A DNA stretch of 64,000 nucleotides from Octopus vulgaris. Its lineage: Eukaryota. The notes under the pieces were generated by a model. It had not been told where the DNA came from and did no database searches. It was given only the letters and a program-made list of their open reading frames with translations. This document shows, one piece after another, positions 9,260-18,239 of the stretch. The position numbers and the translations under genes are program-made. The stretch lies in NCBI GenBank assembly GCA_951406725.2, contig OX597823.1, forward strand, positions 80,662,001-80,726,000, written 5' to 3'. Positions within the stretch are counted from its first letter, which is position 1. Each line of letters starts with the position of its first letter.

Positions 9260-9535
9260 TGTAGCGTAGCTAGGTGATATCCTCACTGTTTGAGAGATAT
9301 ATTAGAAATGATCTCGTGTTAGATAGCAACCATCTTTCGGCTATTTGGACCCTGTTGTATTCATTGCTCTGATTGGTTGGCATTGGCGCAGTTTGTCTCT
9401 TGACTTATTTCGCGCCAATGCCAACCAATCAGAGCAGTGGACACAACAGGGTCCAAATAACCGAAGGTGGTTGCTATCTAACACGAGATCATTTCTAATG
9501 TATCTCTAAAACAGTGAGGATGCCACCTAGCTACA
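9260..9535. repeat. Palindromic element related to an LTR end, ~125-bp arms
   Basis: GTAGCTAGGTG...CATTGGCGC pairs with GCGCCAATG...CACCTAGCTAC. The right arm is a diverged homologue of 6940-7067. Confidence 0.85.
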
Positions 9536-11109: not shown

Positions 11110-11960
11110 TTCCTCTTATTGATTCTTGTCATCCCTCCAGAACTTTGACTTCCTAATCTTCAGGAAACTCGAATGCTTGGTCAATGTCAAACTCTCCCTA
11201 GAGTCCTGCGACTCTCGGTCTACGCAACTGCTCGTCTCTATCGCTTCCTTGTTTACTTTTCCTCTTTCACGCTTGCTCCTCTTTGCTAACATCCTTTCCT
11301 CTCCAACATAGACTATTTCCAACCGACAGATGGGTGAAGCTCTATCACAGTGGAAAGAGCTGGGTTTGTGAGTTCCTATTACAGTTGAGGATAGACGGAA
11401 ACAGAGGGTATGCGACAATCTGCGGTCAGATGCCACTTTCAACACTCTCCTTGATCAATCTGATCAATTTTCAAGGTGTCGTTCTTCTTTCAAATAGTGC
11501 AAAATTCTCGAGAGAGTGGATTAATGCCTTTCCTGTGGTCAACATTGGAAGTCTACTCAGTCTTGAACACCGCATTTCCATCGCACTCTGAGTGGAAGCT
11601 GGCGTCTGTAGAGGGCTGATATGCCGCTGTGATAAACCTATCGACCCCACAGGTCTTCACGGTCTGTCTTGCCGCCTAAATGCTGGTCGCTTCGCTCGTC
11701 ACACCGAGCTAAACCTTATCATTAAGTGGGCCCTGGCTCGGATTAATATCCCCTCAGTTCTGGAGCCGTCGGGATTATCCAGAAAGAGACCAGATGGTTT
11801 TACTTTCTGTCCTTGGATAGAGGTGGGTGCCTCATTTGGGATGTCACAGTCTGCAACTCTTTTGCTCCCAACGCCTTAGCCTTGTCATCGCCCGTGCTTA
11901 TAATGCAAACGTGCTGGCTTGCTTCAGTTGGTTCCGTAGAACCTTGTGGTGTGCGACCAG
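11110..11960 (+). pseudogene. 3' fragment of a CRE-like non-LTR retrotransposon (zinc knuckle plus restriction-like endonuclease)
   Basis: REWINAFP...RISIAL*; CRCDKPIDPTGLHGLSC; ARHTELN; LEPSGLSRKRPDG; frameshifted LIWDVTV. This is the motif order of PD-(D/E)XK RLE domains. Confidence 0.75.
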
Positions 11961-12634
11961 TTGAAGCGCTTGGTGCTGCACTGTTGGGTTTCGTTTTTTC
12001 CTTTTTTTAAAAAGATAAATGTGTTCAACAGAAAGGATACACTAATGAGTTGGAGCTTCAGAATAAGTTTTACTGGTTATATTTTACTTTTAGGATCATT
12101 AAGTAAAGATGTATCTGTGATGAAAACAATTCTCCACAAATGATTTCAATTCATATAATAAATCTCTGAACGAGGCGATGTTCTCCTGGGGCTACAAGCT
12201 AAAGTAACACCCACCCTTAGTGGTTAACCATATTGAGATGGCAAATATACCTCACATTGTCGTGCAGTTACTGTTTATACCTCGTTCAGAGATTTATTAT
12301 TGCTTGCATACAGTTTTTCGAGATCAGTGACGAAAAGTTACTGGAAAAATGATATAAGTATTTGCATTGGGACCCCTTTCATCGAAAACCGGTGTTTTGA
12401 CTCGTCTAGGGACCCCTCTTTCATCTGCGTATTGAGAAGTTAGCTGCCTATTTTGTTGAGTGAGTTCGTTTTTTGTTCGTCGTTGTTTGTGTTTGCTCGT
12501 GAATTGAACAGTTGTCCGTTGTGTGACAGTAATTTTCGCCCTACGGGGCTGAAAATTCTGTGTATAAACATTGTTATTACCTTCGGGGTGATTTTTTTTT
12601 TTTTTTTGAAAAATTGGTTCTCATAATTTGAGAA

Positions 12635-14040
12635 ATGGAGTTCGACTTGGCGTCGAGGAGCGACTTTCCCGTGATGGGAAAAGGCGAACAGAAGGATATC
12701 GAGGTTAGAAAACAGTCTTTTTCGGCCGCAGTGGACGGAACCGTAACGGAAGTGGAATTCAAAATAGAACAGTTGTTCGAATACCGGAACTTGGTCAAAA
12801 AGGAAGGCAACGAAATAAAACTGGTACCGCTGCAAGCGATATTACAGGAAATAAAGGCCAAGACAGTCGTGTACAAGGTTTACAGTAACAAAGAGAAAAA
12901 AATAATGGACGTGAAGAACGAAATAGTAGAGAAGTGCTTGTCCCCGGTGTGGAGCAAAATTCGCTACGTCGGTCGAGGTGCCCGCAGCGCTACCGTTGAA
13001 GCACATTTCGACTCGGCTGATGTGGCAAGAGAGATTTCATCGATGACCTTAAAAAGTGAGGACATCATGTTACTACCTACCTATATGGGCAAAAGAACTG
13101 CGAAACTATATGTGGAAGACATACCAAGAGGATATGATATAATGTGGGTAGCAGCGGCGGTTCTGCACGACGTAGAGCAGAAAGTCTCAATTCTGCAGAT
13201 GAAAAGGAAAGAAGAGGTAAACTGGAAGGGATAAGCGCTCGAACTCCTCGTTCAAGCAGAAAATAATGTGCTAGAAAACTTACCCGATAGGGTATTTATT
13301 GAGGAGGGAATTACAATGAGAGTGTCAGTGGAGGGGCACAGACCTAGGTGTTTCAAATGTGGCGAAAAGGGTCACGTCCGCTCGAACTGCATAAAAAAAA
13401 GAAAAACAGCGAAGCCCCTCCTCAAAGTGCTTCAAACACAGAAAAAGAAAAGGCGGAAAAAGACCCCAAGACTGCGACAAGGAAGGGAATCGAAACGGAA
13501 GATAAAAATGAACAAATGGAATTTACACAGGTGACACACAAAAGAAAAAAGAAAATACCCTGGACTCCCCTCCCCAAACAAAGAAAAAATCAGCAAACAC
13601 CGCAGAGATACATACAAAACAAATTCCCCAGCCCTACCCCCACGGCACTGTATTCATTGAAACACAGTTCGCCAAGCCCCTCCCCATAAAACAAGATTGG
13701 AAAAAATTGATTAAAAAAATGAAAAGATTGTAGCATTCGACGAGAGGAATGATAGAGTGTTTAAGTATTTAAAATTTTCAAAACTGAAATTATTCAGTAA
13801 GTCTGCAGACACTAAGTCGACCACTCGTTTTGCAAAAATAAAGGAAGACGAGTGGAAGGAAAAAACACTCCAAGAACATTTTTAAAATAACCTTATCAGA
13901 GACGTAACTAACGAAATACTGGAGGGCAAACTTACTATAACCCCGGCAACCACACCTACCCAGAGCCCGATGGCAACGCCGGTTAAGAGCCCTGCAGCTA
14001 CGACCACAAGGGAGGAAGAAGGTGAAGCATGCAGATTTAA
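12635..14040 (+). pseudogene. LINE ORF1 (gag-like, zinc knuckle), disrupted; 3' end approximate
   Basis: 199-aa ORF, in-frame TAA at 13232-13234, same frame continuing to CFKCGEKGHVRSNC, then frameshifts in A-runs. Confidence 0.8.
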
Positions 14041-14091
14041 ACTGTCATGCTCCCTGTCCCAACCGTAAGTTTTTTTTCTCTCTCTCCGACA

Positions 14092-17000
14092 ATGGCAAAG
14101 CTGGGTTGTGTGAATGTGCGTGGAATGGGGTCGAAATGGAAACAAATTTGTCTCCTGAACGACCTCACGACACACGGAGTGGACGTAGCTATTGTAACCG
14201 AGTCCAAGATGAACGGGGCCCAAGCGTTCTCGCCTCTTCTAAATGGTTTCGAGAAATTTATTTCTCCTAGCCGAGGAAGAGCTTGGACTTGCAGGTAAGT
14301 ACTGTCTTTCTGGACCCAGAAGGCAGGCTGGTCGTTCTGGATGTGACCCACGTAAGTAAACAGTCCTTCAGGTTGGTAGCTGTCTACGCTCCGAATGAGT
14401 GTAGGCAGTCGGGTTTTTTTCGGAATCTGGAGCACTTTTTAGTGACCTCGAAAACGGTAGTCTTAGTAGGGGACTTTAACACTGTCCTCGAAGCGCGGGT
14501 CGACAGTGTTGGCTCAACCAATAGGAAGGGGAACCCTAGCCTCAAGGGTCTACTAGAGAGCTTTAATCTAGTAGACCGTTATCGACTGGATGAGCCGAGC
14601 GTTCCACAGCGGACGTGGAGTAACAACGACGGCTCACGCAGATCGTATATAGATAGGATATTCGTTAGAAAAAGAGATAAGGATACGTTTAGTTGTCCAC
14701 AGTTTCACATTGTGCCTTACACGGATCACAAATTTGTGACTTGTAGGGTGCAATTAGATAAGTGCCATAGACAGGGACCCGGGTACTGGAAGCTGAACAA
14801 GTCTATTTTGAATTGTGAAGACTTCCGTACCCGGATTAAGGTGTTAGTACAGAGGGCATTATGTGGCACCATCATTAACAATAGATGGTGGCACTCCCTC
14901 AAAAGAGCCATTCGTTCAGAGTCCATTAGATTTAGCAATCAGCTAAGGTTAGATAGGTCTAGGATAGAGGACGATTTAGTTAAGAATCTAAACGAGGCAA
15001 TGGAATCTGGCTCTGCATCCGGAGTGATGGCGGCAGGGACTGTATTGTACCGTCACCTTAACTCCAAACACGAAGGTTGCAGAATTAGAGCTAAGCTACG
15101 CGCAGGGAAACGAGAAGGTATTAACGTTGCCGGATGGGCCCGTCGAGTGGAGAGTCAGATAGGTAACAAAGCTTCAATCAAGTCTTTAACTGACGAACAG
15201 GGACACAAGATCTATGGACAGGAGGAGATGCAAAAGTTTCTTCACCAGCATTTCGCCCGCGCGTTCGGGGTGGGTGGGTCGCTGGAGCGGAGGAAGGCCT
15301 TAAAGGACTTCCTAGCCGGCGGACCGCGGCTCTCGGGGCGTGAGGTGGAGTGCTGTGAAGGAGCGATTACTCCCGCGGAGATAGAGGGGGTGCTGGCCGG
15401 ATACTCCGGGGAGAAGTCGCCGTGGTTGGATGGTCTGCCCTACGAGTTTTATCAAAGTATGCCGGACTTGTTCGGGGGAATACTGGCAGTCGTCTACGCG
15501 AACTGGCAGCAGAACGGGAGAATTCCCAGTTCTGTAAGCCGGGGAGTGGTGACGCTAATCCAGAAAGACCCGAGCAAGGGGGATAACATTAGTAATTACA
15601 GGCCCATAACTCTACTTAATGTAGAGTTAAAGATTTTGGCCAAGGTGTTGGCAAAAAGGTTGACGACTGTCGTAGAGAAACTTGTAGAGAAAGCACAGAC
15701 ATGTGCAATTCCAGGCAGGTCGATCCAGGACAATCTTCACCTTATACGCTACACCTTAGATAGGGTGGGTAAATTAACCGGCAAGGGCGGAGTAATGGTC
15801 CATTTAGACCAAAGTAAAGCGTTCGATAGGGTAGACCATAAGTACCTGGCGATGGTCCTCGAAGCGGCTGGACTGGGGCCTGAATTTCGCGGGTGGATCT
15901 CCGCTATGTATAGCGGCATCAAGTCCACCGTCCAGATAAACGGTTACCTAACGGAACCGTTTTCGATCGAATGTTCAGTTCGTCAAGGGTGCCCCTTGTC
16001 ACCACTTTTGTACGTGTTGGCTCTCGAGCCATTGCTGCGAAAGTTGGAGAGGCTGGGAAGTAACCCGGATGAGATCGGAGGCGGGAGGACGGTTTCTGCT
16101 TATGCGGATGACGTCACCCTCATCGTGTCCAATGAGGCTCAGCTACCTTGTGTAGAAGATGCTATCAGAGGATACGAGGCGGTGGCAGGAGCAAAAGTTA
16201 ACAAGGACAAGTCGATTGGCTTACGCCTCGGCACCTGGAGGAGCAAGTCGATATCGTCCAGTGCCGTGGGACACTGGACAGATGGTCCTGTTAAGTTGCT
16301 AGGCGTTTGGTTTGGGCCAGACTCCCAAACGGAGAGGAATTGGAGTGAGGTGACGGGCAAGGTGGAGGCCATAGTACGGACCTGGTCCGGAAGGTTTCTG
16401 TCCTTGAAAGGAAGGGCGGAGGTGGTACAGATGTTCATTGCATCTGTAATCACTTACCGCCTGACCGTTGTCCCTTGCCCCGATTCATGGCTTAGCAAGT
16501 TGGAGCGAATCCTTTTCCGCTTTTTGTGGAAGGGAGGAAAGCCACTTGTGAGGCGCTCCGTTTGCTGCCAGGAACCGTTAAAGAGTGGGTTAGGAATGCC
16601 TTGGTTGATGATGCGCAGACATGCGTTGAGGCTGAAGCATCTCTAGCACCACCTGGAGGGTGATAAGGTGTGGAGTCCGCTGGCAGGGGAATTTTTCCCG
16701 AGACCGGCTTCCTTAGTGAATTTTAAACCCGGTTGCATCAAAAGACGGAATCTGACTTTATGGCAAAAGGAGTGCCGACAGGCACTCACGCTGATCCACA
16801 AGGCGGGCAAGGCCGGCAAGGCCGGCTGCGGAAATACCACCTCGGTATTTTATAGCAGGCTGGTAGAGGCAAAGAACGACGACGTCCTAGGAGGGGCTCT
16901 GGGGTTCGACGAAGACCAGCTTACCAACCTGTTTAAAAAGACTTTCAGGACGGGGTATTTGGATAATTTCCAAAGATCCCTGGTCTGGCAGTGTTATAGG

Positions 17001-17459
17001 AATGCTTTACCTGTTCGCGAGAAGTTATCGCGGAACGGAATTTCAGTGCCACCGACATGTCCAAGATGCCGGTTGGACGATGAAACCGTCCAGCACGCTT
17101 TTGTACACTGTCGGCAGTTGTTAGACTTGATAAGTTACGCAGAACACGTGTTATTGCATCTGGGACGAGTACAGCTGTCGGCTGAGTCTATGATTAAGAT
17201 GATACCGCCAACTGGACTCTCGAAGGAAAGTGAGGCATGTTTTCACTGCACGGTTGCAGTAGTAAAAGAATGCATGTGGCGTACAAGAATGGAAGGAGTC
17301 GCAATAGGATCCTTTGTCTCAGGCCCCGGCTTGCTCACTTACTTCAGATATCATCTGAAGAGCAAAATGGGGCTGGAAAAGAAGACCTTACCACGAGGTG
17401 TGTATGAAAAAATATGGAAGGAAGTGGCGAAAAAGGTGGGTGTCAGAAACCCAGTTTAA
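14092..17459 (+). pseudogene. LINE ORF2: AP endonuclease, reverse transcriptase and C-terminal zinc finger; one frameshift (~14280) and one stop (16644-16646)
   Basis: CVNVRG, VTESK, VYAP, GDFN, SYIDRIF, TDH (APE); DGLPYEFY, NYRPITLLN, LDQSKAFDRV, VRQGCPLSP, YADD (RT); CPRC...ETVQHAFVHC. Confidence 0.95.
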
Positions 17460-17721
17460 CTATGGATGGAGAAGAGGAAAGGAAAGCTGCGGGGCCTTAT
17501 AGGTTGCCGGGGTTGAAAATATATCGGTAAGATTTCAATCTAATGTAATGTTATATTAGTCAATGCAAAGGACAATTTAAATACAGTTTTTTGTATAATG
17601 AATGATCCATATATTGTGGAAATTTTTAAACGAACCACTTAACTGTTTTTTTTATGTATGTCCTGTATTGTTCTTCTATGTGCTGATTTTATAATCGTAA
17701 TAAAGAATTAATCGAAAACCG

Positions 17722-17780
17722 GTGATTGTCGTACGCTGATGACCGGTCAATACCTAGAAACTGCAGTCCGTGCGTATCAC
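17722..17780 (+). ncRNA. Type I minimal hammerhead ribozyme, predicted cleavage after C17768
   Basis: Stem I GTGAT..CGTACG / CGTGCG.ATCAC; CTGATGA at 17736-17742; stem II GGT-CAAT-ACC with a mismatched base; GAAA at 17757-17760; palindromic CTGCAG helix III; GTC triplet. Confidence 0.75.
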
Positions 17781-18239
17781 TTAGGTCGACGAGGGAAGGA
17801 TGACCTCCCTTTGCAAATAGCCAACTGGAGGCGATGTTCTCCTGGGGCTACAAGCTACAGTAACACTCACCCTTAGTGGTTAGCCATATTGAGATGGCAA
17901 ATATACCTCACATTGATTTCAATTCAGTTTTAGCAGAAAAATTTGGAAGAATTAGAATAAAGCTCTCCGGTAATTTTCTTTCATGTAAATAAATGCTAAT
18001 GTTCCTTTAAGAATTTGCCAGCAAAACCTTATAAAATAACAATGCTTTTATATGTTATATATGAAAATAAAGATCACACTGACGTCTGTAAATTTGTCGA
18101 CACAGTAATACAATACTCAAATACGAAAGTTTCTTCATAACTGTCCCTCTATTTTTTCCGAATCCTCGAATCAAATTTACTAGTCAATACATACATACAT
18201 ACATACATACATACATACATACAGACAGAATTATGTATG

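What the first reader, a model, noticed from the sequence alone, without database searches (positions are those of the whole stretch)
12369..12425. LINE 5' UTR carries a near-copy of its upstream target sequence
Seen: GGGACCCCTTTCATC (12369-12383, running into the TSD) recurs 40 bp later inside the element as GGGACCCCTCTTTCATC (12409-12425). Inference: a 15-nt match with one 2-nt indel at this distance is unlikely by chance. It may be a relic of repeated insertion into the same target, a replacement for a host promoter or structure element that the insertion separates, or homology used for second-strand priming or site recognition. It supports a long association between this LINE and this target.
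Basis: partly seen in the sequence, partly recalled or inferred. Interest (0 to 1): 0.75.

Follow-up and report, generated by a model that had tools for sequence, protein, structure and literature searches.

The report
LINE head holds captured target scraps
The first 33 bases of this jumping gene resemble the ribozyme-carrying repeat it lands in and are shared by its whole family; they are likely leftovers copied from old landing sites rather than a targeting device, because a sister family without them hits the same spot.

Summary
Observation confirmed. The 17-nt motif is no local duplication: it is in 38 of 40 family-A copies and 18 of 18 sister-C copies. It does not track the target: only 2 of 39 A junctions carry the matching 15-mer, C sits in targets without it, family B (RT about 85% identical) lacks it in 40 of 40 copies yet uses the same site and TSD, and no junction uses the homology (0 genome-wide). 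The resemblance is modestly above chance (p 0.002-0.1, by test). The element is an L1/Tx1-type LINE inserting with a 14-17-bp TSD just 5' of a covarying type I hammerhead in a ~355-nt retrozyme-type repeat. Best reading: a fixed 'insertion site rearrangement', as known for Drosophila R1: target pieces (-12..+3, and +15..+24 in the first 10 nt) were captured once and inherited. Capture is seen directly in four B copies at U2 genes, which carry a 14-nt retrozyme TSD copy as extra head. The scan had found the retrozyme-targeting system before on other DNA; the layered head capture was not among the notes returned. New variant of a known kind.

The parts
12173..12394 (+). Upstream half of the target: a hammerhead-bearing ~355-nt repeat (retrozyme / Penelope pLTR type)
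   Evidence: same repeat directly upstream of 38 of 40 A copies; 2253 candidates in the genome; tandem units 352-383 nt, GC 41-44%
12323..12329 (+). ATCAGTG, 58 nt before the TSD start; predicted snRNA-type promoter element (the label PSE is recalled; lead from earlier scan notes)
   Evidence: 57-60 nt before the TSD start in 61 of 66 sites scored, and 59 nt before the U2 start at 3 of 3 U2 loci checked
12369..12383 (+). Target segment -12..+3 (counting the TSD start as +1), the source-like sequence of the motif; belongs to one target variant
   Evidence: exact in 2 of 39 A junctions; 47 sites genome-wide
12381..12394 (+). 5' target-site duplication (14 bp)
   Evidence: both TSD copies identical in 20 of 29 A copies with both ends read
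12395..12404 (+). First 10 nt of the LINE; shortened form of the head TTGTCACTCG, which matches target +15..+24 of the C-type target at 9 of 10 positions (second likely capture layer)
   Evidence: long head in 11 of 38 A copies, 9 of them exact; 9/10 match, 315 of 200000 random trials
12409..12425 (+). The finding: family-fixed 17-nt near-copy of target -12..+3 in the LINE 5' UTR
   Evidence: 38 of 40 A (29 exact), 18 of 18 C (up to 4 mismatches), 0 of 40 B; D copies begin inside it
12395..12634 (+). LINE 5' UTR; from the shared TGCTGC / GTGAGTTCG stretch and the hairpin near 12530 on it is recognisably homologous in A, B, C and D
12635..14068 (+). ORF1, broken in this copy (stop at 13232-13234 and frameshifts); one CCHC zinc knuckle read by eye
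   Evidence: no Pfam hit for the first 199 aa
14092..17459 (+). ORF2: APE endonuclease, RT, C-terminal zf-RVT; broken by a frameshift near 14280 and a stop at 16644-16646
   Evidence: Pfam PF03372, PF00078, PF13966 above cut-off; best PDB match human L1 ORF2p E=2e-57, R2 only 1e-23
17711..17724 (+). 3' target-site duplication; no poly(A) tail before it
17730..17774 (+). Minimal type I hammerhead ribozyme motif of the target (core 17736-17742 and 17757-17761, palindromic loop 3, predicted cleavage after 17768); stem II of this copy has two mismatched pairs
   Evidence: not detected by Rfam
17725..17915 (+). Downstream half of the target repeat, repeating the stretch 12173-12260 at 17829-17915

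Best explanation
The motif is a family-fixed piece of the LINE's 5' UTR that likely arose by one-time capture of target sequence at an ancestral 5' junction and is likely a relic with no present role in choosing the site. Shown: the LINE inserts at one base of a hammerhead-bearing repeat with a 14-17-bp TSD; the motif is inherited in subfamilies A and C, cut away in D and absent from B, which uses the same site; target DNA does get written into heads of this lineage (14 extra nt at U2 insertions). Inferred steps: (1) an ancestor of A/C/D sat at a junction that ended at target +3; (2) an RNA running in from upstream target was copied into a C-type target whose top strand was cut near +24, with a few untemplated bases, giving TSD + target(+15..+24) + TCTA + target(-12..+3) + element, the layout of an R1 'insertion site rearrangement'; (3) this copy became the master, likely transcribed from the repeat's predicted snRNA-type start at the TSD, so later insertions with the standard cut carry the scraps as their 5' end. 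Site choice likely rests on the endonuclease, as for other APE-type site-specific LINEs.
For: Fixed in 38 of 40 A and 18 of 18 C, 0 of 40 B. RT tree B | (A,(C,D)), C+D 100/99, D 100/99; ORF1-region tree nests D in C: one gain after the B split, one loss in D. B heads at the same repeat site in 20 of 40 copies, at a related repeat in 8, behind another LINE's 3' end in 8, at U2 in 4. No enrichment for matching targets (2 of 39; 47 against 382 sites). 0 junctions use the homology. In A the motif decays like the UTR next to it (10 changes in 646 nt against 37 in 2405); in C its GGGACCCC half carries 13 changes. A second, position-registered target match in the first 10 nt (9/10; 315 of 200000). 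Four B copies at U2 genes (Rfam U2) on two chromosomes read U2 TSD + 14-nt copy of a retrozyme TSD + normal B head. Precedent: R1 ISR junctions, TSD followed by 16-27 nt of upstream 28S (PMC2718515); SINEU-2B 5' extensions similar to their Mariner target (PMC4494074).
Against: The match is only modestly above chance once target variants are counted (13-57 of 600). No target site carries the exact 17-mer (the 1 hit is a mutated LINE copy), so the donor is not found. The -12..-1 part lies upstream of the predicted start site, so capture needs a read-through RNA or a template jump, neither shown. Off-target C and D insertions (L174, L184, L185) carry no donor TSD, so read-in is not the rule. The 3' half of the motif shows 0 changes in 18 C copies and survives in D, which fits some constraint. 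The four U2 copies may stem from one event.
Confidence: 0.6

Rival explanations
1. Chance: the A/C head is unrelated to the target and resembles one of many pyrimidine-rich target variants; this window happens to sit on the best one.
For: Best of 62 variants reached by 13 or 57 of 600 shuffles; whole UTR against whole unit 99 of 3000; no exact donor; only 47 sites carry the 15-mer.
Against: Median over variants also high (3 and 6 of 600) while the B head is not; independent 9/10 match of the first 10 nt; capture of target DNA seen at U2 sites.
Confidence: 0.17
2. Captured and then kept for use: the 3' half (CTTTCATC) copies the target's predicted start-site context and acts as an internal initiator, letting copies be transcribed away from the repeat's promoter.
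For: D copies, which use other targets, begin at or just before the internal ATC (6 at CTTTCATC, 1 at TCATC, 1 at ATC, of 8); 0 changes in the 3' half against 13 in the 5' half in 18 C copies.
Against: Full-length A and C copies begin 23-33 nt upstream of it; B thrives without it; changes in C are inherited, so few independent events; one otherwise full-length A copy with a 17-bp TSD lacks it (L069).
Confidence: 0.15
3. Structural stand-in: in a read-through RNA the motif pairs with the repeat's downstream arm in place of the strand that the insertion moved 5.3 kb away, helping the hammerhead fold and cut the LINE RNA's 3' end.
For: In the empty repeat the -12..+3 strand is predicted to pair with the arm behind the ribozyme; the motif pairs well with one subfamily's arm (9 of 500 shuffles).
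Against: Not better than shuffles for 6 of 7 arms, this locus included (222 of 500); no covariation with the targets of C; B lacks it.
Confidence: 0.05
4. Active homology for second-strand priming or RNA-guided site recognition.
For: R1A of the melanogaster group uses upstream 28S sequence in its RNA this way (PMC2718515 section 15).
Against: That mechanism predicts junctions with a target deletion; 0 found, while standard TSD junctions are the rule; no preference for matching targets; B lacks the motif.
Confidence: 0.03

Closest known systems
Insertion site rearrangements (ISR) of Drosophila melanogaster-group R1A (Stage and Eickbush 2009, PMC2718515; passages and section 15 read)
   Same: APE-type site-specific LINE, 14-bp TSD, then variable bases, then a 16-27-nt copy of upstream target, then the element; flanking target sequence also carried to off-target insertions.
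   Different: In R1A the ISR is a minority junction type and 75% of full-length copies use the homology to give a 9-bp target deletion; here the layout is frozen into the family's 5' end and no junction uses the homology.
Target-specific Tx1-clade LINEs: Tx1L in Tx1D, Keno in U2, Tx1-Mar in Mariner-N4_AMi; SINEU-2B 5' extensions (Kojima 2015, PMC4494074; passages read)
   Same: APE-RT LINE that targets another repeat; tandem copies sandwiching a TSD; target-like 5' extensions in mobilised SINEs; U2 genes used as a target.
   Different: The target here is a hammerhead retrozyme-type repeat, not named among Tx1 targets in the passages read; the U2 insertions here duplicate the first 14 nt of the gene.
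Metazoan non-LTR retrozymes and Penelope pLTRs (PMC7229834 passages; bioRxiv 10.64898/2026.07.22.740005 abstract and term look-up; PMC8557442 passages)
   Same: The target: ~355-nt, GC under 45%, type I hammerhead with short helix III and palindromic loop, tandem and inverted partial copies, 3' tail.
   Different: Mostly dispersed partial units; a common subfamily has a C-A mismatch at the base of stem II; cleavage and circular RNA not shown; none of these texts, as far as read, mentions octopus retrozymes or a LINE targeting them.

Membership tests
R1-type insertion site rearrangement | Normal TSD followed by a duplicated piece of upstream target before the element body | tested here: met
   chance tests
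R1-type insertion site rearrangement | Variation or untemplated bases between TSD and the duplicated piece | tested here: inconclusive
   three inherited head forms in A and a 4-nt spacer of no known source; not copy-by-copy variation
R1-type insertion site rearrangement | Companion junctions in which the same RNA homology gives a precise target deletion | tested here: not met
   0 hits; 1 hit that is a normal C head; no joint in 4 runs. It works like a frozen ISR but is not an active R1A-type system
Tx1 clade LINE | ORF2 with APE endonuclease, RT and C-terminal zinc-binding region, of L1-group affinity | tested here: met
Tx1 clade LINE | Sequence-specific insertion into a multicopy target with a TSD | tested here: met
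Tx1 clade LINE | RT groups with reference Tx1 families in a phylogeny (RTclass1) | not testable with these tools
   no named Tx1 reference held; homolog search gave 14 unnamed or generically named proteins at 25-34% identity. The label Tx1 is by architecture and recall
Type I hammerhead ribozyme (target) | Core YUGANRA...GAAA...UH with three helices supported by covariation | tested here: met
   97 distinct motifs; 30 aligned: 95% of cells paired, 6 of 13 pairs with compensatory change, 0 of 500 shuffles; 3-8 pair C-G 17, U-G 6, U-A 5. Rows were picked by a core pattern and are related, so the shuffle count is no probability
Type I hammerhead ribozyme (target) | Match to an Rfam hammerhead model | tested here: not met
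   no hammerhead family at E up to 5 or 10
Type I hammerhead ribozyme (target) | Self-cleavage | not testable with these tools
   needs in vitro transcription
Non-LTR retrozyme (target) | Non-coding 150-450-nt tandem unit with type I hammerhead and low GC | tested here: met
   3 ribozyme-to-ribozyme units of 354, 357 and 383 nt and one 352-nt spacing, GC 41-44%
Non-LTR retrozyme (target) | Expressed as linear and circular RNA; mobilised by a Penelope-like partner | not tested
   no autonomous partner was searched for; no raw RNA reads were available

The most novel reading that the evidence does not exclude
This LINE lineage starts its RNA at the start site of the small-RNA-type promoter it lands behind, so it keeps writing pieces of its landing site into its own 5' end; the heads form a layered record of target switches (retrozyme subfamilies, U2 genes, other repeats), and a freshly captured head can itself bias joining to, or retarget, the next site.
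Probability: 0.2. Interest if true: 0.7.

Novelty: new variant of a known kind. Interest (0 to 1): 0.45.

Why it matters
The motif itself is probably a fossil, and the junction type is known from R1. The value lies in the natural experiment: four near-identical LINE subfamilies (RT 95-98% alike for A, C and D) with different heads and different targets, and a capture seen at U2 genes, make it testable whether the endonuclease alone or also the RNA ends set and switch target specificity. That question bears on how site-specific retrotransposons evolve and on their use for targeted gene insertion. A hammerhead retrozyme-type repeat as a LINE target was not found in the papers searched.

Tried and rejected
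Local junction duplication: rejected. A ribozyme or stable fold in the LINE head: folds no better than shuffles (197 and 200 of 200 fold as well); no Rfam family. Target as a known small-RNA gene: no Rfam match except U2 at the four B insertions. Junctions through the motif: none (contigs drop rare variants, so one search is weak). Exact donor target: none. RNA-templated 5' TSDs: 9 of 29 A copies have unequal TSDs and 3 of the 9 shift to the commoner allele; too few to separate from mutation. L195 has flanks of two target subfamilies over more than 100 nt; recombination is as likely as transduction. Expression: no RNA holder listed as RNA on record; contigs cannot show starts. Cross-species covariation could not be tested: runs under three organism labels hold the element, and contigs over the motif show no listed substitutions in it, but their relatedness is unknown. 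A first hammerhead pattern was too strict and a first head count had a pattern error (counts 0); both were redone. In the ORF1-region tree three B rows are long branches; the RT tree left out 3 of 39 chosen loci with no RT hit. Look-ups of earlier scan notes by sequence and by words returned nothing.

Full report
Observation. Both strings are at the stated coordinates and GGGACCCC occurs only there in the window. They flank the 5' junction of a 5316-bp LINE (12395-17710) with a 14-bp TSD at 12381-12394 and 17711-17724 and no poly(A) tail. ORF2 has APE, RT and zf-RVT domains and is closest to human L1 ORF2p among solved structures; both ORFs are broken in this copy. I call it Tx1-type from architecture and site specificity; the clade was not tested against named references.

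Is the motif fixed? A genome search with the 5' UTR scored 40 of 189 candidates. The motif is present in 38 of these 40 family-A copies (29 exact, 8 with one change, 1 with two); L062 starts behind it and L069 lacks element nt 13-31. The upstream side, however, varies: the same repeat lies directly upstream of 38 of 40 copies (2 follow another LINE's 3' end), but the exact 15-mer precedes only 2 of 39 intact junctions, this window and L059 (L067 read by eye). Genome-wide the 15-mer-plus-TSD occurs 47 times against 382 sites of the commonest TSD type alone, so A shows no preference for matching targets.

Chance. Against this one target the match beats 5000 of 5000 or 4981 of 5000 shuffles near the junction, and 2901 of 3000 when the whole UTR and the whole repeat unit are compared. 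With the best of 62 sampled target variants allowed, 13 or 57 of 600 shuffles reach it; the median over variants is reached by 3 or 6 of 600; the head of family B is not significant. Homology is likely but not certain.

The target. It is a repeat with at least 2253 candidates, in partial tandem and inverted arrangements with a 3' tail, unit 352-383 nt and GC 41-44%. Just behind the 3' TSD lies a minimal type I hammerhead motif. Ninety-seven distinct motifs were collected from the fetched loci; in 30 equal-length ones 95% of cells pair, 6 of 13 pairs show compensatory change and the 3-8 core pair switches between C-G and U-A (the role of this pair is recalled). Rfam does not detect it. Eight earlier scan notes describe this targeting on other DNA and propose that the TSD start is an snRNA-type transcription start. 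I took that lead and checked spacing: ATCAG(T/C)G lies 57-60 nt before the TSD start in 61 of 66 sites and ATCAGT 59 nt before the U2 start at 3 of 3 U2 loci. The start itself is untested. On this count the motif copies target -12..+3.

Sister families. C (RT 96-97% identical to A) keeps the motif in 18 of 18 copies, with 13 changes in the GGGACCCC half and none in the other, although its targets read differently upstream. D begins inside the motif (8 copies) and uses other targets. B (RT 84-86%) has no near-match in 40 of 40 heads (best 8 mismatches of 17), yet 20 of 40 copies sit at the same repeat site with the same TSD, 8 at a related repeat, 8 behind another LINE's 3' end and 4 at U2. The RT tree gives B | (A,(C,D)) and the ORF1-region tree nests D in C: the simplest history is one gain after the split from B and one loss in D. 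Target use is older than the motif and does not need it.

Is the homology used? Priming or recombination through it would join target +3 to element nt 32. Two genome-wide patterns found none (0; 1 hit, a normal C head), nor did contigs of four DNA or unlabelled runs (weak). In A the motif decays at the rate of the adjoining UTR (1.5% each). Pairing with the repeat's downstream arm is not better than shuffles for 6 of 7 arms.

How it could arise. Stage and Eickbush describe R1 junctions made of a TSD, variable bases and 16-27 nt of upstream 28S, caused by RNA that carries upstream target (PMC2718515, passages and section 15); SINEU-2B has 5' extensions similar to its Mariner target (PMC4494074, passages). 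Two observations here point the same way. First, four B copies at the start of U2 genes on two chromosomes read U2 TSD, then ATCGCTACGTGGTG, then the normal B head; this 14-mer differs by one base from the retrozyme TSD beside L119, a B copy with the same diagnostic head variant. Second, the longer A head TTGTCACTCG (9 exact and 2 near among 38 copies) matches at 9 of 10 the bases that follow the TSD in C-type targets; random 14-mers do so in 315 of 200000 trials (the test was chosen after seeing the match). The head thus reads target(+15..+24), four unexplained bases, target(-12..+3), element. Against this: no exact donor exists, three off-target C and D insertions carry no donor sequence, and the U2 copies may be one event.

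Verdict. A real, family-fixed near-copy of the target, most likely a frozen capture with no present part in targeting (0.6); chance 0.17; reuse as an initiator 0.15; structural stand-in 0.05; active priming homology 0.03. The junction type is known. A retrozyme-type repeat as LINE target did not turn up in six searches; a recent repeat annotation of an octopus genome lists L1-Tx1 families with no occurrence of 'target' or 'ribozyme' (PMC13282606, term look-up). Repbase and Kojima and Fujiwara 2004 could not be searched or were not read, so prior description there is not excluded.

Noticed in passing
L222-L225 (G000 C3:20.81-20.83 Mb, C23:43.31 Mb): Family-B LINEs at the first bases of U2 snRNA genes, duplicating U2 nt 1-14 and carrying a 14-nt retrozyme TSD copy as extra head; one tandem pair.
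   Followed up: yes
L204 (minus strand, about 6085) and L210 (minus strand, about 6090): A further LINE family follows a B copy: in L210 directly after the TSD, in L204 directly after the hammerhead's predicted cleavage triplet.
   Followed up: no
L154, L159, L171, L175, L177, L184, L198-L201: Family D and one C copy target a different repeat, clustered on contig C27; L174/L176 hold a tandem D array beside a CT microsatellite.
   Followed up: partly
L037, L043, L056, L104, L108, L116, L123-L130, L188: Mixed tandem arrays of A, B, C and other LINE 3' ends sandwiching one TSD: repeated insertion at the regenerated site.
   Followed up: partly
L195: Upstream and downstream flanks belong to different target subfamilies; recombination between copies or long 5' transduction.
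   Followed up: partly
L034, L047, L064, L056/L070: The 5' TSD differs from the 3' TSD toward the commonest target allele, as if overwritten by donor sequence.
   Followed up: partly
window 17743-17756 and many target copies: The commonest hammerhead subfamily sampled keeps a C-A mismatch at the base of stem II (45 of 97 motifs) while the next pair covaries.
   Followed up: partly
window 12530-12562 and runs X1, X7, X8, X17: The 5' UTR hairpin is conserved across all four families; contigs join position 12555-12561 to 12632-12709 with other letters between, likely further related families.
   Followed up: no
window 9345-9456: Long near-perfect hairpin scoring 48.5 bits on a miRNA model, below its cut-off; possibly a MITE or a miRNA precursor.
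   Followed up: no
window 11500-11960: GC-rich stretch upstream of the target that reads like a fragment of another non-LTR element with a restriction-like endonuclease (by eye and recall).
   Followed up: no
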